A stretch of DNA of 64,000 nt from an uncultured Clostridia bacterium (GTDB taxonomy: Bacteria; Bacillota; Clostridia; Christensenellales; UBA1242): assembly GCA_944383915.1 (NCBI GenBank), contig CALWRJ010000023.1, forward strand, positions 10,274 to 74,273, in the 5' to 3' direction. The stretch's first letter is position 1; each line of letters starts with the position of its first letter. This document shows, one piece after another, positions 17,175 to 60,789 of this stretch. The notes below the pieces were generated by a model, which saw only the letters and a list, made by a program, of their open reading frames with translations, was not told where the DNA came from and searched no databases. The position numbers and the translations under genes are program-made.

Positions 17175-17506
17175 GGCGAAAAAATTTTCGCTACGCGAAA
17201 AACATTTTCGCACTCAAAACAAAATGCTTATTCGCTACGCTCAAATTAGCAATTAGCAGGTAGCAATTAGCAATTATGGAGTTATTACTTAAATATTTAG
17301 GTATTCCTGCCTTAATTACTAATTAATTAAAGTTTTTTTTGTTACGCGCGGTTCGGCGGGGATAGAGCCCCCGCAGGCTCAATACGCCTTCGGCGAGTAC
17401 AATACTCTTTTATTATACCCAGCCTTAACTGCTAACTGCTAATTGCTAATTGCTAATTTGAGCGTAGCGAATAAGACTGCTAATTGTTAATTGCTAATTG
17501 TAAATT
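17175..17506. repeat. mosaic intergenic element L1
   Basis: GCGAAAA..TTTTCGC hairpins. AATTAGC-type array 17244-17275 is inverted relative to the GCTAATT-type array 17427-17458. The flanks CTTATTCGCTACGCTC / GAGCGTAGCGAATAAG are also inverted. GC cassette at 17343-17400. Preceded by a ~110-nt T/G-rich tract. Confidence 0.9.
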
Positions 17507-26956: not shown

Positions 26957-27030
26957 GTCCTACGCGGACAGCGGTGCGGTAGACCGCACAAGTCATTAGC
27001 GTATGCAAGCATACGCGAAAGTCCGTAAAT
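26957..27030 (+). repeat. GC hairpin cassette c1 (74 nt), identical to 45057-45130
   Basis: GTCCTACGCGGAC, GTGCGGTAGACCGCAC, CATTA, GCGTATGC-AA-GCATACGC, GAAAGTCCGTAAAT. Confidence 0.9.
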
Positions 27031-27090
27031 ATTATTGCTTTTCTTTTTTTACTATACCCAGCCATAACTGCTAATTGCTAATTGCTAATT

Positions 27091-27156
27091 CGCGTGCAAC
27101 GCGTAAGCCCCCGCTGGCTCATTAGCGTATGCAAGCATACGCGAAAGTCCGTAAAT
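27091..27156 (+). repeat. GC hairpin cassette c3
   Basis: CGCGTGCAACGCG hairpin, then TAAGCCCCCGCTGGCTCATTA, then the same GCGTATGC-AA-GCATACGC hairpin and the GAAAGTCCGTAAAT tail. Confidence 0.9.
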
Positions 27157-31955: not shown

Positions 31956-32352
31956 AATTAGCAATTAGTAATTAGCAATTAGCAGTTAAGGATGAAATTA
32001 ATTTTTTATCCTTTTTTATTGTTACCAATCTCGTTTAAATTAGCAATTAGCAATTAGCAGTTAAGGAGTTATTTCTTTAAATACTTATAATCTAATAGAT
32101 TTCAGCCTTAATTCCTAATTACTAATTCCTAATTCCTAATTATTTTGCACTCCGTGCGGGGCGGGGATAGAGCCCCCGCTGGCTCATTAGCGAACAAAGT
32201 TCGCGTTCGCTCCGCTCAAATTAGCAATTAGAAATTAGGAATTAGGAATTAATGAATTTATTTATCTTAAATAATATATTTTTTAATATTCCTTCCTTAT
32301 TACTAATTACTAATTTGGAAGGTTTCCTTCCTTAACTGCTAATTGCTAATTC
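31956..32352. repeat. mosaic intergenic element L5 (upstream of rsmH)
   Basis: AATTAGC/AATTAGT arrays at 31956-31985 and 32039-32060. CCTAATT arrays at about 32109-32141. GC cassette at 32147-32205. AATTAGG array at about 32219-32250. GGAAGGTTTCCTTCC. GCTAATT array ending about 32351. The CGCAAC-TTC-GTTGCG hairpin (31941-31955) abuts the rsmH RBS. Confidence 0.9.
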
Positions 32353-32374: not shown

Positions 32375-32775
32375 AAACTTCTACCAGTTTACAATCTTTG
32401 TAGGAGCAGATTGTCGCTCCGCTCAATCTGGTTGCGGTAGATTGCAAGTTTTTATATCTTGCAAACTTCAACCAACCTGCAATCTTTGTAGGAGCAGATT
32501 GTCGCTTCGCTCAATCTGGTTGCGGTGAATTTTATGCTAACGCATTTTTAGTTGGTTTCACATACGCTCTACCATCACAATTCTATAAGAGCAGATTGTC
32601 GCTCCGCTCAATCTGGTTGCGGTAGATTGCATGTTTTTATATCTTGCAAACTTCAACTAACCTGCAATCTTTGTAGGAGCAGATTGTCGCTCCGCTCAAT
32701 CTGGTTGCGGTGAATTGTATGCTAACGCATTTTTAGTTGGTTTCACATACGCTCACCAACTCACAATTCACCTGA
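32375..32775 (+). repeat. ~185-bp higher-order tandem repeat containing four 47-nt units
   Basis: CAATCTTTGTAGGAGCAGATTGTCGCTCCGCTCAATCTGGTTGCGGT at 32392-32438, 32480-32526, 32578-32623 (5' part diverged) and 32665-32711. The interleaved segments are also repeated. The last unit runs into the 3' end of the metallophosphoesterase gene. Confidence 0.9.
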
Positions 32776-34823: not shown

Positions 34824-34916
34824 GAATTTTGCCTTGGAGTGTGCAATGCACACGGAAAGCCAGCCGAAAGTAAGAGTAATTGTCAAAGTGAGTGGCTCAC
34901 GGCTGAACTTTGAATT
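34824..34916 (+). repeat. conserved 93-nt module, copy 1 (candidate structured RNA)
   Basis: GAATTTTGCCTTGGAG-[GTGTGCA-A-TGCACAC]-GGAAAGCCAGCCGAAAGTAAGAGTAATTGTCAAAGTGAGTGGCTCACGGCTGAACTTTGAATT. Confidence 0.8.
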
Positions 34917-35180
34917 AGGAATTTTGAATTAAGGCTTTACGCTTCGCCTTTGGCTACGCTAAATTAGAAATTAGGAATTAGGAATTAGGAATTAAGGAAG
35001 GAAACCTTCCAAATTAGTAATTAGAAATTAGGAATTTTATTCGCTACGCTCAAATTAGCAATTAGCAGTTAGCAATCTACCACGCAAAGCGAGAATTAGC
35101 AATGAGCAATTAGCAATTAGCAGTTATTGTGCGCGTGCGCGCGAAGCAATTATAGATAAATAAACTTCCTTACAATATTT

Positions 35181-35276
35181 GAATTTTGCCTTGGAGTGTA
35201 CAATAATGTACACGGAAAGCCAACCGAAAGTAAGAGAGATTGTTAAAATGAAAGGCTCACGGCTGAACTTTGAATT
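35181..35276 (+). repeat. conserved module, copy 2
   Basis: Same flanks as copy 1. The hairpin is changed to GTGTACA-ATAA-TGTACAC. Confidence 0.8.
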
Positions 35277-35349
35277 TTGAATTTTGAATTATGGCAGGAA
35301 TTATCAAAAATATATAATATACCCAGCCATAACTGCTAATTGCTAATTG

Positions 35350-37431
35350 CTAACTGCTAATTCTCGCGGAGCGAGTAAGATTCTTTGTTCTCTCGAATAT
35401 ATTTTTTAGTAAAAACTGTTCGTCCGCGTCAGTGTAACCGTTATAGTCCTCTAAATATTTAGGATTGTCAACCTTATCAAAATTATCTTGCAAAATTTTA
35501 TTAAAGTCGTTATAACCTGCCCCGACCGTGATTTTTTTGACGCGATAGTGCGTTTCATCGTTCATCGCTTTATCAAAGCCTACACACACGCGTTTTAAAC
35601 ACTCCACAATCTCATCTTGCAAAACTTTATCGGAGTTGATAATTTTTAAAACACGGCTTGGCACTTCGATGTTGTCTAACGTTACCTGCTTGCGCTTTTC
35701 GTCATACCACACCCACGCCTGCCCAAGTATTCTTTCCCCTTTTTTTATCACCAAAAAACCCGAATTTGCTCGCGTCATACCGTACTCCACGCACTCCTGC
35801 GCCGAATTTCCATAAGTTTGGCAACAGTTCGTTATGTCTCCGAGCACAGCGCCGAGCGGGTCATTTTTAGAAAGAAGTTCGTACGAAACCTTCGTTTTTT
35901 CGGTATCGGGAGCGCATTTAAGTGTTAACTCGTCATCGGGAATGCTAATTCCCTTTAAGTACCACTTTGAAATCGCGTCAAAATCGTCTTGCGAATAACC
36001 GTAATTTGCTAGTAAACTAGCGAGTTTTTCCGTTTTTTCGGTAACATTTTGGTAATTTACGCTTAACAAATAATCTCTTACCATTTTTGGAGTAAGGCGC
36101 TCGTTGTCTTGACGCGTAATTATCTTTTTATTAGGAAAATCTCTCAAAATTTTATTGAAGTTATCGTGCGCCCTGTACATTAAATTCACCCCGTCTTTCA
36201 CCATAAAATCAGGGTTTTCAGGGAAATACAGCATAAAAAACTGTGCAAATTCGTGATTGTATTTTTTGTTTTTAGAGTTGAAATCAAACATTTCGTGAAT
36301 TTGAGTTTCATTATAAACGCCAAGAATATGCTCTTTTATAAAATTTGTAGCAATGCTAGACTCTTTTCCGTCTCTACTAAACACCCCTAGCGCGTGCGCA
36401 AGCCCAAAAAGCGAAATTCGATTTACATCGTTTTGAATATTCGCAATTTTTGAGATTTCACGCCAATTTTTTTCGTTGTTATTGCAGTAAAATAAAGGAA
36501 TTTCAGATAAAAATAGGTTGTCTACAAGTGAATAGTGCGGAATAGTTTTATCGAGTTTTAGCCACTCGATTAGTGCTGGATAACTATCATAATTGCCGAT
36601 TAATTTATCTAAATTGTTCCATTTTGTCGCCTTGCTTTTGATAATCTCGTCATTTATTACCCTAAAATCGCCACTTAAATCATATATATAGCAGTTTCCT
36701 TTTCTATCTAAAAACATAGCGTTTGTGTTATTCGTTTCTAACCTTTTTAAACCGTCATTTTCGGTAAAAAAATGCACATTTTCGTATGCTCGAAGTTCGG
36801 TTACGCCGTTATAAACATCGGCAAGCGTATAAATCCCAATAGAAGTATGTTTAATGCTATCAAAATGGCTATTATGATATTTCCGCAAGCCGTTTGGCAA
36901 AAAAATGCTGTGAATATTTGTATTTGTAAGTGCTTCGCTTTCAATAAAAAGTAAATTGTCGTTTAATTTGATTTTTTGTAAACTTTCGCAACCGAAAAAA
37001 GCCCTAGCCATAATCATAAGCACATTTTTAGGACAAGCAAAACTTGATAGTGATTTGCACCCTTCAAAACAACTTTCGCCCAACTCGATTACTCCGTCCG
37101 CCGAAACAAACTCAACACTATTAAGGCTCTCGCACCCCATAAACGCACCAAAGGGAATGTTCTTTAAATTAGGACAATCAATTTTCACCCTTTTTAAACT
37201 TGTACACCCTAAAAAAGCGCACTCGCCAAACTCGGTTAAAGATTTTGGCAAGTCCACTTCCTCTAAATTTACAAAATCTTTAAAAGTCTCGCTTTTTATT
37301 CCCGAAAAATCATTAGGAAAATTAATTTTTCTAACACTTCTTTTGTCTAATCCTTCCAACTTCTCAGGCGACATCGTGCTGTCTTTTAGTATAAGCGTTC
37401 CGTCCGCCTGTAAAATATAATTCTCCGCCAA
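35350..37431 (-). CDS. LRR_5 (BspA-type leucine-rich repeat) protein with an uncharacterised Cys-rich C-terminal domain (693 aa)
   Basis: TTG start after GGAAGGAAGG. Clear LRR_5 units in the N-terminal 200 aa (ECAFLGCTSLKRV, FGAFMGCESLNSV, ESCFEGCKSLSS, RAFFGCESLQKI). The C-terminal domain carries DITNCCQTYGNSAQECVEYG...GQAWVWYD. No signal peptide. The last ~10 codons and the TAG stop lie in repeat-derived sequence. Confidence 0.7.
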   Translation of the reverse strand: MAENYILQADGTLILKDSTMSPEKLEGLDKRSVRKINFPNDFSGIKSETFKDFVNLEEVDLPKSLTEFGECAFLGCTSLKRVKIDCPNLKNIPFGAFMGCESLNSVEFVSADGVIELGESCFEGCKSLSSFACPKNVLMIMARAFFGCESLQKIKLNDNLLFIESEALTNTNIHSIFLPNGLRKYHNSHFDSIKHTSIGIYTLADVYNGVTELRAYENVHFFTENDGLKRLETNNTNAMFLDRKGNCYIYDLSGDFRVINDEIIKSKATKWNNLDKLIGNYDSYPALIEWLKLDKTIPHYSLVDNLFLSEIPLFYCNNNEKNWREISKIANIQNDVNRISLFGLAHALGVFSRDGKESSIATNFIKEHILGVYNETQIHEMFDFNSKNKKYNHEFAQFFMLYFPENPDFMVKDGVNLMYRAHDNFNKILRDFPNKKIITRQDNERLTPKMVRDYLLSVNYQNVTEKTEKLASLLANYGYSQDDFDAISKWYLKGISIPDDELTLKCAPDTEKTKVSYELLSKNDPLGAVLGDITNCCQTYGNSAQECVEYGMTRANSGFLVIKKGERILGQAWVWYDEKRKQVTLDNIEVPSRVLKIINSDKVLQDEIVECLKRVCVGFDKAMNDETHYRVKKITVGAGYNDFNKILQDNFDKVDNPKYLEDYNGYTDADEQFLLKNIFERTKNLTRSARISS

Positions 37432-37574: not shown

Positions 37575-37959
37575 GGCGCGAGCGCGAATTTAAACTTCAC
37601 GCTTCGCTCAAATTTTGAATTGCGAATTTTGAATTTTGAATTATTGCTGGGTATATTATTTAATTTAGATAATATACTCCGTAATTCCTAATTAAACAAT
37701 AGTGTGAGAGTAAAACTCTCAAAGTATGTATTTTTTTAAAAAATAAATTTAGATATTTCAAAATTTCTAAAAGCGGAGAAATTATAAAAACCGTATAAGT
37801 AGCAAGAAATTTTGTCCTTAATTCAAAATTCAAAATTAAGCAAAGCGCTAAGCCTTAATTCCTAATTACTAATTCCTAATTCCTAATTTGCGCTATGCGC
37901 ATAGGCTTGCGCGCACGCGCACATTAATTCCTAATTTCTAATTCCTAATTACTAATTAA
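37575..37959. repeat. mosaic intergenic element L8
   Basis: TTGAATT arrays. GAGAGTAAAACTCTC module (37706-37720). Fold-back module CAAAATTTCT...AGAAATTTTG (37759-37814). AATTCAA and CCTAATT arrays. Junction GCATAGGCTTGCGCGCACGCGC. Confidence 0.9.
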
Positions 37960-40445: not shown

Positions 40446-40542
40446 AAAAATTTACCTTAAAGTTTTTTGTTTTTGGTATTTTAATTTGTTTGCTTTGTTA
40501 TTTGTTTTTTTATTTTTATTTGCTTTGTTATTTGTACTTTTT

Positions 40543-40938
40543 GGCGAAAAGATTTTTGACTTCGCAAAAAACATTTTCGCACATAAAACAAAATTTTTAA
40601 ATTTTCATCCTTAATTCCTAAATCCTAATTCCTAATTATATGCACTCCGTGCGGGGCGGGGATAGAGCCCCCGCTGGCTCAATATGCCTACGGCGAGTAC
40701 TTTTACTATATCAAATCTATCCTGTTTGCACTTATCGAATATTTATTGTAAAAAGGATTTATATTTCTAATTATTATTAAAAGGATTTTTATCCTTAATT
40801 CCTAATTTTCTAATTACTAATTTAAGCGTAGCCGAATGGCGAAGCGTAAAGCCTTAATTACTAATTTCTAATTACTAATTACTAATTTGGAAGGTTTCCT
40901 TCCGCAATCCCTAAGTCCTAATTCCTAATTCCTAATTC
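40543..40938. repeat. mosaic element L9 between the topoisomerase B and A subunit genes
   Basis: GCGAAAA hairpins. CCTAATT arrays. GC cassette at 40642-40700. Junction TAAGCGTAGCCGAATGGCGAAGCGTAAAGCC. ACTAATT arrays. GGAAGGTTTCCTTCC. Preceded by an ~80-nt T/G-rich tract. Confidence 0.9.
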
Positions 40939-40959
40939 ATTTTGAACTGCGATCAAAAT
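40939..40959 (-). terminator. short AT-rich hairpin just after the B-subunit stop
   Basis: ATTTTGA-ACTGCGA-TCAAAAT. Confidence 0.35.
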
Positions 40960-42952: not shown

Positions 42953-43427
42953 AATTAGCAATGAGCAATTAGCAGTTAGCAGTTAAGGATGAAATTTATA
43001 TTTTATCCTATTTATTGCTTACTAACTCGTTTTAATTTTACTTGCTACACAAGAATTAGCAATTAGCAAAGAATGAAGGAAATTTATCTAATTAATATCT
43101 TTAAATAATTCCCAGAATATTTACTAATGCCTAATCACTCATTAAATAGAATAAAACTTTCCAACTGCGCAACATAAATTAGCAATGCTTAATTTAAATA
43201 TTACCTTATTGTTGACTTTTTGCTTTGTCACCTTCGCTTTAAATTTTGAATTAGGAATTTTGCCTTGGAGTATGCAACGCATACGGAAAGCCAGACGATA
43301 GTTAGAGTAATTGTCAAAGTGAACGGCTTACGGCTGAACTTTGAATTAAGGAGTTATTTTCAAAAGTAATTTTATATTTAGAAAATTCCTTCCTTAACTG
43401 CTAATTGCTAATTGCTAATTGCTAATT
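42953..43427. repeat. mosaic intergenic element L10
   Basis: AATTAGC-type arrays at 42953-42983 and about 43054-43068. 93-nt module copy 3 (43255-43347). (GCTAATT)x4 ending at 43427. The hairpin TTATTTTGGAC-AAA-GTCCAAAATAA (42928-42952) lies in the B-subunit leader. Confidence 0.85.
43255..43347 (+). repeat. conserved module, copy 3
   Basis: Same flanks as copies 1 and 2. The hairpin is changed to GTATGC-AAC-GCATAC. Confidence 0.8.
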
Positions 43428-44883: not shown

Positions 44884-45516
44884 AAAATTTCCGCTACGCG
44901 AAAACATTTAAGCAAAACAAACAAAATGCTTATTCGCTACGCTCAAATTAGCAATTAGCAGGTAGCAATTAGCAATTATGGAAGTTATTTTCTAAATAAT
45001 ATTTTAATTAATTCCCAGCCACAACTCCTAATTCCTAATTCCTAATTACTATTTATGTCCTACGCGGACAGCGGTGCGGTAGACCGCACAAGTCATTAGC
45101 GTATGCAAGCATACGCGAAAGTCCGTAAATTTTTAACTGTTGTTTTTATATTTACTTAATTTTAAACTTAAAGGCTATAATATATCAATATTTTTTAGAT
45201 ACTTTCAAAATTTCTAAAAGCGGAGTAAAATTAAATAAGTATAAGTAGCAAGAAATTTTGTCCGTAATTCAAAATTCAAAATTCAAAATTGCGCGAAGCG
45301 CTAAGCCTTAACTGCTACCTGCTAATTGCTAATTGCTAATTCGCGTGTAACGCGTAAGCCCCCGCTGGCTCAATAGCGAACAAAGTTCGCAAATAATTAA
45401 ATTACCCAGCAATAATTCAAAATTCCTAATTCAAAATTCAAAATTCGAGCGTCAGCAAGTAGGCTTGCGCGCTAGCGCCCCGTAATTCAAAATTCAAAAT
45501 TCAAAATTCAAAATTT
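44884..45516. repeat. mosaic intergenic element L11 (longest, about 630 bp)
   Basis: Order: GCGAAAA module; CTTATTCGCTACGCTC; AATTAGC array; AT linker; CCTAATT array; GC cassette 45057-45130; fold-back module 45206-45260; AATTCAA array; GCGCGAAGCGCTAAGCC; GCTAATT array; GC cassette 45342-45390; AATTCAA arrays flanking GTAGGCTTGCGCGCTAGCGCC. Confidence 0.9.
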
Positions 45517-46687: not shown

Positions 46688-48091
46688 ATGATTTCACTCG
46701 TGGTTACCGCGGACACCAAAAATTACAACCCCGCCGAGCGCGACTTAGCCTTTTCGGCGTTGCTTGCAAAGTACAAAGAACCATTTGAAATTGTGTATGT
46801 TGCGAACGCAGACTACCCCTACCTTGACGAACTCCGTAAAATCGCTTCTGGAAATGACAGAAAACTTGTAGTTACTGCGCCAACAACGAATATTAATACA
46901 CAAATCTACACAGCACTAGACTATACGGACAACGGTGATGTTTTGCTAGCGACACTAGACACCAATCTTGCTCTAATTCAGAAAATTATCGAAAAGCACC
47001 GTGAAGGCGCTGATTTGGTATTTGTTAAGCAACAAGAAAATTGGTTTAAAAATATGTTTATCGCACTTGGGCGCGCTACCTATCAATTAGGGCTAAAAAT
47101 ACTCGGGCGCGGGCACGATATGTGCTGTGACGCGCGCGTCTTGTTTTTAAACAATCGTTCGGTAAATACAATTATTTTAAACCCAACTTTAAGTAAGGCT
47201 TTAAGGCTTGTCAACCCAGACCCTGACAAAACTTCGCGCATTCTTGACGAAAAAGTCATTTACGACAACCCCACGCCTACGCAAAAAGGCGCAAACAATT
47301 CGTTTATGTCGCTTGGTATCGTTTCGCTATTTTATATAATTGCCCTACTTGTCCTTGCAATCGTTTTCCCACTATGCAATTCGGGCGTTTACACCGTTTG
47401 GATACTTGTCGCACTAATTTTGTGGCTTGTACTAGGAATTATCGGCTGTGTCGTTGTCGCGAAATTTATTTACAACACGCGACTAGGACTGCCCGTTGCT
47501 ATAAATCTGGCTGGCGAGCCGATAATTAATATTACCGAAGTCGTGGCAAGCGAATACCAAACTGTATTTGACGAAAACGAACCAATTACTACCCCAAACA
47601 CCGCTTTCGCTGATGAAATTGATGAAAATGAAAGCGAAAATGTCGATGTTGATGTAGTAAATCTTGACGAAACGATTGTAGACCTTGATAACACAGAAAC
47701 CGCAGAAAATGACACAAAGTCTGCGCAAAACGAAACAAAGGACGCAAAAACAAGCGCTAAGGCAAAACAAAGCGCAACTTCAAAAGCGAAAATTACTTCA
47801 AGTAAAGCAAGAGCGCAAAGCGAAACAGACACTTTAAATATTGCTGAAACCGAAAACACGACTAAAAAAGCAGAAAACACTTCAAGCGATGCTAAAACGG
47901 AAAGCGCCAAAACAACTAAAAAAGCAACACAATCCCCTAGCACCGCAAAGAAAACAACAACTAATAAGAAAACGACTAAATCAAGCACGAAAACAACAAC
48001 CAAAAAAGCAAGTGCTACTAAAACAACCGCAAAAAAATCAACTAAAACAGGCGCAAAGAAACCGAAGGTTTCAGTGCGTAACCGCACTTCA

Positions 48092-48097
<6 letters not shown>
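46688..48097 (+). CDS. membrane protein with a degenerate GT2-like N-terminal domain and a K/T-rich disordered tail (469 aa)
   Basis: N-terminal 190 aa loosely GT2-like (EIVYVANADYP, GDVLLATLDTN). Two TM helices and a low-complexity lysine/threonine tail. The TAG stop (48095-48097) is inside the first AATTAGC heptamer of the downstream repeat. Confidence 0.55.
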
Positions 48098-49514
<1,417 letters not shown>

Positions 49515-50289: not shown

Positions 50290-50565
50290 AGCAAAAATTT
50301 TTGCTGGTAGCAAAATCTTTTTGCACATAAAACAAAATGCTTCGCATTATTTTTTGCACTCCGTGCAGGGCGGGGATAGAGCCCCCGCAGGCTCAATAGC
50401 GTATGCAAGCATACGCGGAAGTCCGTAAATACAATTTCTTTGCTTTTTTATGTTAATGCTAAATTATGCTAGTTAAAAAAGGTTTTCATTTTCTTTAAAG
50501 CTTCGCGCGCTAGCGCCCCTTAATTCAAATTTCCTAATTCAAAATTTAAAATTCGAGCGATAGCG
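50290..50565. repeat. mosaic intergenic element L14
   Basis: GCAAAAATTTTTGC-type hairpins. GC cassette at 50356-50430. Junction GCTTCGCGCGCTAGCGCC. AATTCAA-type array. CGAGCGATAGCG module. Confidence 0.85.
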
Positions 50566-60560: not shown

Positions 60561-60789
60561 TTACGCTTCGCCGTTCGGCTTTGCTTAAATTAGTAATTAG
60601 GAATTAGAAATTAAGAATTAAGGCTTAGCGCTTCGCCGTTGGCTCGCTTTAATTTTGAATTAGGAATTAGGAATTTTGAATTAAGGCTGAAATAATCTAA
60701 ATTATATTTTATACCCAGCAATAATTGCTCATTGATAATTGCTAATTGCTAATTCGCGTGCAACGCGTAAGATTGCTAATTTGAGCAAA
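60561..60789. repeat. mosaic intergenic element L16
   Basis: CTTACGCTTCGCCGTTCGGCTTTGCTT plus AATTAGT/AATTAGG arrays. CTTAGCGCTTCGCCGTTGGCTCGCTT plus TTGAATT/AATTAGG arrays. AT linker ending in ACCCAGCA. GCTAATT array. CGCGTGCAACGCG hairpin. Confidence 0.9.

What the first reader, a model, noticed from the sequence alone, without database searches (positions are those of the whole stretch)
34824..35276. Conserved ~93-nt module in three copies with a compensatory hairpin, all on the plus strand
Copies lie at 34824-34916, 35181-35276 and 43255-43347. They share GAATTTTGCCTTGGAG ... GGAAAGCCA ... GTAAGAG.ATTGT.AAA ... GGCT.ACGGCTGAACTTTGAATT. The internal hairpin reads GTGTGCA/TGCACAC, GTGTACA/TGTACAC and GTATGC/GCATAC in the three copies, so the paired positions change together. 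A second pairing, AGCC...GGCT, is kept in all three. Each copy is embedded in TTGAATT-type heptamers. The size, conservation and stem covariation make it a candidate small structured RNA, or a protein- or transposase-recognised DNA hairpin.
Basis: seen in the sequence. Interest (0 to 1): 0.65.

Follow-up and report, generated by a model that had tools for sequence, protein, structure and literature searches.

The report
Structured repeat module in intergenic mosaics
A roughly 80-base sequence that folds into three base-paired stems is scattered through the spaces between genes of two uncultured gut bacteria, and it behaves like a lineage-specific, probably selfish, structured repeat rather than a regulator of any particular gene.

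Summary
Three ~93-nt copies lie at the stated coordinates and their hairpin covaries. A covariance model found a fourth, divergent copy at 48159-48239 in the opposite orientation. It also found seven copies in one other genome, the MAG CALWEW01 ('uncultured Clostridia bacterium BRZ_DV bin98', GyrA 88% identical).

Across the 11 copies, three helices are kept: P1 CAGCCG/CGGCUG around a ~33-nt loop, P2, and the variable hairpin P3. 175 of 176 pair cells are paired, and 7 of 17 pairs show changes on both sides.

No Rfam family matches. Virus, plasmid and JGI metagenome collections gave nothing, and no other species representative has it.

Copies sit at non-orthologous sites next to unrelated genes, inside units closed by inverted heptamer arrays. 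Relatives with 82-85% GyrA identity have neither module nor arrays, and in four of them the gyrB-gyrA spacer is 9-10 nt, against 515-583 nt here. No consistent promoter, terminator or downstream gene class was seen.

Best reading: a new family of structured, dispersed, invasive intergenic repeat, like bcr1 or BOX. Its single-strand fold is under selection. It is not a free-standing sRNA gene or a riboswitch. Interest is moderate.

The parts
34824..34916 (-). Copy 1 (c1). The covariance-model core is 34829-34908. Helices in + coordinates: P2 34831-34835 with 34856-34860; P3 34839-34844 with 34848-34853; P1 34861-34866 with 34900-34905. The strand given is the one on which all pairs are standard or G.U, and is tentative.
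   Evidence: 93.2 bits, E 1e-20
35181..35276 (-). Copy 2 (c2). Core 35186-35268. P2 35188-35192 with 35216-35220; P3 35196-35202 with 35207-35213 (7 bp, loop ATAA); P1 35221-35226 (CAACCG) with 35261-35266.
   Evidence: 82.5 bits
43255..43347 (-). Copy 3 (c3). Core 43260-43339. P2 43262-43266 with 43287-43291; P3 43270-43275 with 43279-43284; P1 43292-43297 (CAGACG, one mismatch) with 43331-43336. It lies 337 nt upstream of gyrB, in the divergent gyrB/murG-like spacer.
   Evidence: 85.7 bits
48159..48239 (+). P1 48162-48167 (CATCCG) with 48202-48207 (CGGATG); P2 48209-48212 with 48234-48237; P3 48215-48220 (GTACTC) with 48225-48230 (GAGTAC). It lies upstream of the GAPDH gene (48399-49514 +).
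   Evidence: 37.3 bits with R1 (built without it), 62.1 bits with R2
35094..35126 (.). AATTAGC heptamer array, left arm of the inverted arrays that close the ~280-nt unit containing copy 2.
   Evidence: unit 35090-35365 folds at -98 kcal/mol, z = -10
35330..35362 (.). TAATTGC heptamer array, right arm of the copy 2 unit.
48092..48124 (.). AATTAGC array, left arm of the unit containing copy 4.
   Evidence: unit 48088-48380, -102.5 kcal/mol, z = -9.7
48345..48377 (.). TAATTGC array, right arm of the copy 4 unit.
43395..43427 (.). TAATTGC array to the right of copy 3. Its partners are the AATTAGC arrays at 43054-43069 and 42953-42985.
35316..35328 (-). -10-like motif GGCTGGGTATATT at the inner edge of the array, about 50 nt upstream of copy 2 when read on the - strand.
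   Evidence: 11 matches in the window against 2.0 expected; any promoter function is inferred only
48126..48138 (+). The same motif, GGCTGGGTATAAT, 20 nt upstream of copy 4 when read on the + strand.

Best explanation
The module is a lineage-restricted, non-coding, structured dispersed repeat with a ~78-nt core.

What it is: one cargo module of the heptamer-array-bounded mosaic DNA that has invaded the intergenic spaces of this Christensenellales-like gut lineage.

Fold: two adjacent domains. P1 is a 6-bp helix closing a ~33-nt loop of conserved sequence. It is followed directly by P2, an internal loop, and the variable hairpin P3. The fold is kept by compensatory change.

How it most likely works:
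1. The fold is read in single-stranded form, as ssDNA or as RNA, by a trans-acting factor that copies or moves the module. It may also be needed so that the module is tolerated when it is co-transcribed with neighbouring genes.
2. The flanking heptamer arrays give it its insertion context or the homology needed to move.
3. It does not regulate a particular gene class.

Shown here: the copies, the fold, the covariation, the non-orthologous sites, the restriction to array-bearing genomes, and the inserted nature of the mosaic.

Inferred only: mobility of the module itself, which strand is active, and the existence of a trans factor.
For: - Eleven copies are known, four in the window and seven in about 62 kb of bin98. 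A second model run with filters off found no more.
- Structure: 99.4% of 176 pair cells are standard pairs. Seven of 17 pairs carry changes on both sides (P1 two, P2 one, P3 four). None of 500 shuffles reaches this, and slid registers give 27-47% paired. Examples: P1 G-C to U-A in copy 4 (CAUCCG/CGGAUG); P1 A-U to C-G and P2 G-C to A-U in L011b.
- Distribution: only bin98 among 185,579 species representatives. None in 119 array-bearing loci from other phyla, in JGI metagenomes, in viruses, or in plasmids and phages.
- Turnover: bin98 carries the module in its gyrB-gyrA spacer and the window does not. The window carries it upstream of gyrB and bin98 does not. Copy 1 and L001a share flank motifs but adjoin unrelated genes.
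- Inserted DNA: the gyrB-gyrA spacer is 9-10 nt in four relatives with 82-84% identical GyrA, against 515 and 583 nt here. All six close relatives (82-85%) have no arrays and no module.
- Nesting: copies 2 and 4 sit at the apex of ~280-nt hairpin units closed by ~35-bp inverted arrays. Seven of 11 copies have the left junction AATT|TTGCC.
- Modularity: the same core joins different 3' pieces, namely an AU hairpin in four bin98 copies and a ~400-bp shared repeat in L001b and L011a.
- Precedent: bcr1 of the Bacillus cereus group has two stem-loops, compensatory changes, a non-conserved distribution and is transcribed (PMC3184786). BOX, RUP and SPRITE are lineage-restricted, judged parasitic and co-transcribed (PMC3049150).
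Against: - No transposase, RAYT or reverse transcriptase was seen in the 36 of 46 window ORFs scanned.
- The core has no terminal inverted repeats and no clear target-site duplication. The TTTG on both sides could simply be array sequence.
- No presence/absence polymorphism between strains could be obtained. The other-sample contigs are 99.7-100% identical and carry copy 1 wherever they reach it.
- Divergent copies (copy 4, L011b) still keep all helices. That would also fit selection on each copy in place, which points to a host-level RNA function.
- Only 11 copies from two genomes exist, and the alignment was fitted to the model, so the covariation statistics lean towards the structure.
Confidence: 0.55

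Rival explanations
1. A cis-acting RNA domain with a host-level role. The module is transcribed as part of 5' leaders or operon spacers, with the strand complementary to the reader's being the sense strand. There it acts as a processing, stability or insulating element for mRNAs that now carry long mosaic spacers. Each copy would be kept by selection where it sits.
For: - In 9 of 11 copies the G.U-compatible form points the same way as the flanking genes.
- Twelve G.U cells are compatible only with that strand: 175/176 paired against 163/176 on the other.
- A -10-like motif, GGCTGGGTATAWT, lies 20-50 nt upstream of that form in copies 2 and 4.
- Fold z-scores are better on that strand (-2.5, -4.5, -1.0 against -0.7, -0.4, -1.2).
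- Divergent copies keep all helices through compensation.
- The gyrB-gyrA spacer must be read through, or carry a promoter, for gyrA to be expressed (inference).
Against: - 9 of 11 is weak evidence. The one-sided binomial probability is about 0.03, and copies 1/2 and L011a/b are not independent.
- In the one clear operon spacer, bin98 gyrB-gyrA, the opposite form is the sense strand.
- Eleven of the 12 G.U cells come from a single invariant pair.
- Unpaired residues are A/G-rich on the other strand (A 149, G 140, U 99, C 57), which is the more usual composition for functional RNAs (own knowledge).
- No consistent promoter or terminator was found, and the downstream genes are unrelated.
- The module is absent from close relatives, which do without it.
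Confidence: 0.25
2. A miniature derivative of a single-strand transposon (IS200/IS605-type PATE, or a REP/RAYT-type element). P2/P3 and P1 would be the subterminal hairpins recognised by an HUH (Y1) transposase on the lagging-strand template. Insertion would occur next to a fixed short sequence (TTTG) in the AATTTTG heptamers. This is a specific version of the best explanation.
For: - There are no terminal inverted repeats, and there are imperfect hairpins near both ends.
- The left flank is fixed...AATTTTG|CC, in 7 of 11 copies, and TTTG recurs on the right in the window copies.
- Three of the four window copies place the G.U-compatible strand on the G-rich strand. GC skew is negative on the + strand in 31 of the 32 windows. 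By the usual skew rule this G-rich strand is the lagging-strand template (own knowledge).
- The covariation is indifferent to RNA versus ssDNA.
Against: - No Y1/HUH gene was found in the sequence available, although only about 2-3% of a genome was seen.
- P1 closes a 33-nt loop, unlike the compact hairpins of IS608 or REP (own knowledge).
- There is no GTAG-type 5' tetranucleotide.
- Flanks differ in 4 of 11 copies.
- No empty and filled site pair was available to define the ends.
Confidence: 0.12
3. There is no selection for structure. The apparent compensation in the hairpin would come from DNA-level palindrome homogenisation (template switching within an inverted repeat), and the rest is shared ancestry of recently duplicated DNA.
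For: - P3 is a near-perfect palindrome in every copy, and quasi-palindrome correction is a known mutational process (own knowledge).
- Most P1 and P2 columns never vary.
Against: - P1 arms are 33-35 nt apart and P2 arms 20-23 nt apart, with non-palindromic sequence between them. They still show three double changes, in copy 4 and L011b.
- The blocks TTGCCTTGGAG and CGGAAAGCCA are unchanged in seven and nine of the 11 copies respectively, in both species. Meanwhile the flanks and the surrounding spacers in the two genomes (GyrA 88% identical) show no evident similarity by eye.
Confidence: 0.05
4. A short protein-coding gene. In copies 1 and 2 an ATG in the hairpin loop opens a 24-28-codon frame (MHTESQPKVRVIVKVSGSRLNFELGILN and MYTESQPKVREIVKMKGSRLNFEF).
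For: Read directly from the sequence of copies 1 and 2. A GGAG lies 6-9 nt upstream of the ATG.
Against: - Copy 3 and all bin98 copies lack a start codon in that frame.
- The length of the hairpin varies out of frame (14-18 nt).
- The copy 1 versus copy 2 differences are mostly non-synonymous: GTA to GAG, GTG to ATG, AGT to AAA, against one synonymous change.
Confidence: 0.02

Closest known systems
bcr1 repeat of the Bacillus cereus group (about 155 bp)
   Same: Both are dispersed intergenic repeats restricted to a narrow lineage. Their genomic positions are not conserved between close relatives. Both fold as two independent stem-loops, and base-pair compensatory changes maintain the structure (PMC3184786; here).
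   Different: bcr1 is flanked by 5-bp direct repeats and is known to be transcribed. Here no clear duplication is seen and transcription is untested. There is no sequence similarity. This module is half the size and is nested in heptamer arrays.
BOX, RUP and SPRITE repeats of Streptococcus pneumoniae
   Same: Like BOX (boxA-boxB-boxC), this is a modular mosaic built of sub-elements. It has extensive secondary structure, occurs in one species and at lower density in its nearest relative, is absent from other relatives, and is judged parasitic and co-transcribed with neighbours (PMC3049150). Here the window has 4 copies in 64 kb and 18 arrays, bin98 has fewer arrays, and relatives have none.
   Different: There is no sequence relationship. 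No heptamer arrays are described for BOX. RUP has terminal inverted repeats and an IS630-type parent, whereas none is found here.
REP/BIME elements with RAYT transposases, and IS200/IS605-derived miniature elements
   Same: Short imperfect palindromes are combined with other motifs into intergenic mosaics. The hairpin is recognised in single-stranded form, there are no terminal inverted repeats, and there is an orientation bias.
   Different: No GTAG-type tetranucleotide and no RAYT or TnpA gene was found in the sequence available. The core contains a long-range helix around a 33-nt conserved loop, which REPs lack.
Small dispersed repeats (SDR) and heptameric STRR arrays of Nostoc and other filamentous cyanobacteria (Elhai et al. 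2008, Genome Res 18:1484; own knowledge, since the paper could not be retrieved)
   Same: Very short mobile-looking modules are nested inside tandem heptamer arrays and hairpins in intergenic DNA. The same heptamer, AATTAGC, occurs in tandem arrays in many cyanobacterial genomes.
   Different: SDRs are 21-27 nt with no three-helix fold. This organism is a gut Clostridia-class bacterium. The module itself is absent from all 119 array-bearing loci of other taxa.

Membership tests
Any Rfam 15 RNA family | Score at or above the family's gathering threshold, or at least a credible E-value, against one of the 4227 covariance models. | tested here: not met
   No hits at gathering score over the whole window. 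With the E-value threshold, nothing overlaps the module in a meaningful way for copies 1/2, copy 3 or bin98 loci L001, L010 and L011.
Riboswitch or cis-regulatory leader | Fixed position in the 5' UTR of functionally related genes, conserved at orthologous sites, with an expression platform (terminator or SD-sequestering helix). | tested here: not met
   Downstream genes are unrelated: a 222-aa hypothetical protein, gyrB, gap, a 164-aa ORF, a giant ORF and gyrA. Two of 11 copies are antisense to both neighbours. Sites are not orthologous between the two species. No terminator-like site was found.
Independent small-RNA gene | Its own promoter and terminator, or defined transcript ends. | tested here: inconclusive
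   No consistent sigma-70 consensus promoter or intrinsic terminator was found. A -10-like motif lies upstream of 2 of the 4 window copies. Transcript ends cannot be tested with these tools.
MITE with terminal inverted repeats | Terminal inverted repeats at the ends of the element. | tested here: not met
   The core ends TTGCCTTGGAG... and ...CGGCTGAAC are not inverted copies of each other. The larger ~280-nt units do end in ~35-bp inverted heptamer arrays, so the composite unit meets this feature but the module does not.
MITE with terminal inverted repeats | Target-site duplication, and a related autonomous IS in the genome. | tested here: inconclusive
   TTTG occurs on both sides of the three + strand window copies and of L001a, but it is also part of the heptamer. 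No transposase was found in 36 of 46 window ORFs. The whole genomes were not available.
REP / REPIN with RAYT | A 20-40-nt imperfect palindrome preceded by a conserved GTAG-like tetranucleotide, with a RAYT gene flanked by REPs. | tested here: inconclusive
   P3 is a 5-7-bp palindrome that always starts GT and ends AC (except the shortened L011b), but it is preceded by GGA/CC, not GTAG. No RAYT was seen in the window. Neither genome could be searched in full.
IS200/IS605-derived miniature element (PATE) | Subterminal hairpins at both ends, no inverted repeats, no duplication, insertion 3' of a fixed tetra- or pentanucleotide, and TnpA present in the genome. | tested here: inconclusive
   Hairpins lie near both ends and there are no inverted repeats. 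The left flank is fixed at TTTG in 7 of 11 copies. TnpA was not found in the limited sequence available.
Structured dispersed repeat of the bcr1/BOX kind (a functional class, not a homology family) | Multi-copy, intergenic, lineage-restricted, at non-orthologous positions, with a conserved secondary structure maintained by compensatory change. | tested here: met
Short protein-coding gene | A conserved start codon and frame, with substitutions biased towards synonymous changes. | tested here: not met
   A start codon is present only in copies 1 and 2. The hairpin length varies out of frame and the substitutions are mostly non-synonymous.

The most novel reading that the evidence does not exclude
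The three-helix fold is the cis-acting recognition element, as RNA or ssDNA, of an undescribed mobilisation system that uses tandem heptamer arrays as its landing pads or homology arms. That system would account for a mosaic of arrays and structured cargo modules invading a gut Clostridia lineage within the divergence time of one genus. It might also connect to the AATTAGC arrays seen across cyanobacteria, Acidobacteriota, Bacteroidota and other phyla. A variant of this reading is that the module is a small self-processing RNA.
Probability: 0.15. Interest if true: 0.75.

Novelty: new member of a known kind. Interest (0 to 1): 0.42.

Why it matters
If the reading is right, this is a clean, small example of a repeat whose fold, and not only its sequence, is under selection. 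Three helices are supported by compensation in only 11 copies.

It sits inside a recent and massive invasion of intergenic DNA. An operon spacer has grown from 9 nt to more than 500 nt within one genus of uncultured gut bacteria.

It gives a concrete handle, in the form of a covariance model and defined junctions, on two open questions: how such mosaics spread, and how essential operons such as gyrBA and the dcw cluster tolerate them.

It also matters in practice. These repeats break metagenome assemblies (contigs L005-L007 end in or next to copy 1) and could be mistaken for regulatory RNAs.

Tried and rejected
- Rfam at gathering and at permissive thresholds, on the window and on bin98 loci: nothing relevant.
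- Pattern scans of virus contigs and JGI metagenomes: the virus scan returned nothing and the metagenome hits are chance matches in coding DNA. blastn against plasmids and phages found nothing.
- Covariance-model search of 119 AATTAGC-array loci from other phyla and of 22 gyrA loci from relatives: only the already known bin98 copy was found.
Copies 4 and L004 break it without compensation, whereas CAGCCG/CGGCUG and GCUUU/AAGGC are compensated.
- Other structural ideas were checked by eye. A three-base pseudoknot (GGA of the internal loop with UCN before P1) shows one compensation and two breaks, so it is not established. The internal loop does not fit a kink-turn reading. Hammerhead, twister and pistol core motifs are not present.
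- The mini-ORF reading is rejected (see rival explanations).
- Promoter and terminator scans show no enrichment over shuffles and no consistent site.
- A protein family recurring next to AATTAGC arrays across phyla was looked for. Only ABC-transporter and two-component proteins recur.
- Strain-level presence/absence could not be tested. Three look-ups of neighbouring proteins were not on record, and the contigs found for the 222-aa protein are 99.7-100% identical to the window.
- Elhai et al. 2008 could not be retrieved. Literature searches for the heptamer gave nothing specific.

Full report
**1. The observation**

They align at 82% mean column identity, with long invariant blocks. Two separate core patterns each hit exactly these three sites, with up to three mismatches allowed. 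Shuffles of the window give 0.00 and 0.14 expected hits. The hairpin arms read GTGTGC/GCACAC, GTGTACA/TGTACAC and GTATGC/GCATAC, so two pairs change on both sides. Each copy abuts heptamer sequence, AATTTTG on the left and TTTGAATT on the right. The window as a whole is packed with tandem heptamers such as AATTAGC, AATTAGG and AATTCAA, usually as inverted arrays in intergenic DNA.

**2. More copies and a fuller structure**

A pattern scan of one genome per species (185,579 species) found related modules in only one other genome. This is the MAG CALWEW01, 'uncultured Clostridia bacterium BRZ_DV bin98'. The other hits were chance matches inside coding sequence.

A covariance model built from eight copies found three more:
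- a fourth window copy at 48159-48239, in the opposite orientation (37 bits, E 3e-7);
- two further bin98 copies.

A second model built from all 11 copies, run with filters off, found no more in the window or in 62 kb of bin98.

On the 11-copy alignment the structure has three helices:
- P1 is CAGCCG/CGGCUG and closes a loop of about 33 nt.
- P2 is GCUUU/AAGGC and follows P1 directly.
- P3 is the variable hairpin. It is separated from P2 by a CC/UCC internal loop.

Of 176 pair cells, 175 are standard pairs. Seven of the 17 pairs have changes on both sides (two in P1, one in P2, four in P3). None of 500 column shuffles reaches any of the main measures, and sliding the partners by 1-3 columns drops pairing to 27-47%.

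The changes outside the hairpin are the informative ones:
- P1 G-C to U-A in the fourth window copy (CAUCCG/CGGAUG).
- P1 A-U to C-G in L011b.
- P2 G-C to A-U in L011b.

The alignment was fitted to the model and there are only two genomes, so these figures lean towards the structure. The compensations are nevertheless plain in the raw sequences.

**3. Which strand**

Eleven of those 12 cells are one invariant pair, so this amounts to about two independent observations.

Single-sequence folds are also better on the complementary strand, with z-scores of -2.5, -4.5 and -1.0 against -0.7, -0.4 and -1.2.

I lean towards the complementary strand, but the question is not settled.

**4. Context**

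The window is ordinary chromosome. It carries prophage genes near the start, then the dcw cell-wall cluster, gyrB-gyrA, a murG-like gene, fba and gap.

The module sits at these places:
- twice in the spacer between an LRR protein gene and a 222-aa hypothetical gene;
- upstream of gyrB;
- upstream of gap.

In bin98 it lies next to unrelated genes, including inside the gyrB-gyrA spacer.

The G.U-compatible form points the same way as its neighbouring genes in 9 of 11 copies. That is weak support for a transcribed sense, because two pairs of copies share a spacer and two copies are antisense. No consistent sigma-70 promoter or intrinsic terminator is present. A -10-like motif, GGCTGGGTATAWT, recurs at the inner edge of arrays. 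It lies 20-50 nt upstream of two window copies.

Copies 2 and 4 sit in the apical part of ~280-nt units. The ends of these units are ~35-bp inverted AATTAGC arrays. The units fold with z about -10, and the module's helices form as separate sub-domains.

**5. Inserted, fast-turning-over DNA**

GyrA places the organism among Christensenellales-like gut MAGs. bin98 is 88% identical, and six other species are 82-85% identical. None of those six has the module within about 10 kb of gyrA, and none has a single heptamer array.

In four of them gyrB and gyrA are 9-10 nt apart. In the window they are 515 nt apart, and in bin98 583 nt apart. Those spacers are filled with mosaic that looks unrelated between the two genomes.

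The module is at different sites in the two species that have it. Copy 1 and L001a share even the flank motif TTCGCTACGCTC, yet they adjoin unrelated genes. The same core is joined to different 3' pieces: nothing extra in the window, an AU hairpin in four bin98 copies, and a ~400-bp shared repeat in two.

Two findings need separate explanations. The non-orthologous sites, the modularity and the restriction to array-bearing genomes point to a mobile or recombining cargo module. The compensated helices, and the core blocks that stay unchanged in most copies of both species while the surroundings diverge, point to selection on a single-strand fold.

**6. What it is not**

- It is not an Rfam family.
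- It is not on known plasmids or phages.
- It is not a riboswitch, because there is no common downstream gene class, no expression platform and no orthologous conservation.
- It is not a mini-gene, because the start codon and frame are not conserved.
- Palindrome homogenisation cannot explain it alone, because P1 and P2 are long-range helices with compensated changes.

**7. Mechanism and comparison**

My best explanation (confidence 0.55) is a structured, non-autonomous dispersed repeat. Its fold would be read in single-stranded form by a trans factor that propagates it. The heptamer arrays would serve as its landing context or as homology arms.

The main rival (0.25) is a host-level cis-acting RNA role in the long mosaic-bearing transcripts. 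The two are not exclusive. bcr1 and BOX elements are both parasitic-looking and transcribed (PMC3184786; PMC3049150).

bcr1 is the nearest precedent in kind, with two stem-loops, compensatory changes and non-conserved positions. BIMEs and BOX are the nearest for modular mosaic build. The SDR/STRR system of Nostoc is the nearest for nesting in heptamer arrays (own knowledge). There is no sequence relationship to any of them.

A single-strand-transposon origin (0.12) fits the absence of inverted repeats and the fixed left flank. It lacks a transposase and empty-site evidence.

**8. Verdict**

The feature is real and the covariation is real. The interpretation as a structured element is right. 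It is best filed as a new family within a known kind, structured invasive intergenic repeats, and not as a new regulatory RNA. Interest is 0.42. The surrounding phenomenon may deserve more attention than the module itself: a heptamer-array mosaic that expanded operon spacers fifty-fold within one genus, built on a heptamer that also forms arrays in many other phyla.

Noticed in passing
About 0.3 are expected for a random 21-mer (own estimate). No protein family recurs next to them beyond ABC-transporter and two-component genes. Why the same heptamer forms arrays so widely is unexplained.
   Followed up: partly
window 40446-40959; L143 9376-9958; L145, L147, L148, L164: The gyrB-gyrA spacer is 9-10 nt in four close relatives but 515 nt in the window and 583 nt in bin98. 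It is filled with heptamer arrays and hairpin modules. Spacers inside the dcw cluster are similarly inflated, for example 478 nt between murE and the PBP gene.
   Followed up: yes
window 26958-27030, 45057-45130; partial copies 27106-27155 and 50380-50430: A second structured module, GTCCTACGCGGAC AGC GGTGCGG-TAGA-CCGCAC ... GCGTATGC-AA-GCATACGC GAAAGTCCG. It has a possible long-range CGGAC/GUCCG helix enclosing two hairpins. It shares the 'hairpin + GAAAGTCC' feature with the divergent module copies, but neither covariance model detects it. No credible Rfam hit (one weak sub-threshold miRNA match elsewhere in the region).
   Followed up: partly
window 32143-32192, 40638-40687, 50352-50401, 17338-17387, 27078-27127: A GC-rich hairpin module, GCACTCCGTGCGGGGCGGGGATAGAGCCCCCGCTGGCTCA, is present in about five copies, often joined to the module above (family D20).
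   Followed up: no
window 17412-17424, 27051-27063, 35316-35328, 37645-37657, 48126-48138, 60708-60720 and others: The motif GGCTGGGTATAWT, which contains a -10-like TATAAT, recurs at the inner edge of heptamer arrays and faces into the unit. There are 11 matches against 2.0 expected. It could be an inward-facing promoter of the array-bounded units.
   Followed up: partly
window 32404-32769: A 185-nt unit is repeated in tandem (two copies, 96-97% identical) just upstream of, and overlapping the start of, the metallophosphatase ORF. A contig from another sample (L005) appears to have one copy fewer.
   Followed up: partly
window 4462-8910: Phage genes: a P22-like portal and a large terminase. 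No exact heptamer array starts before 17244, so the prophage-like segment has none.
   Followed up: no
L005 1-67, L006 1-123, L007: Metagenome contigs from other samples that carry the 222-aa gene end inside copy 1 or in the heptamer repeats next to it. The repeat therefore breaks short-read assemblies.
   Followed up: yes
L010 7613-7765: A sub-threshold match to the Rfam Clostridiales-1 RNA (37.8 bits against a gathering score of 48, E 4e-5), next to a tRNA gene in bin98.
   Followed up: no
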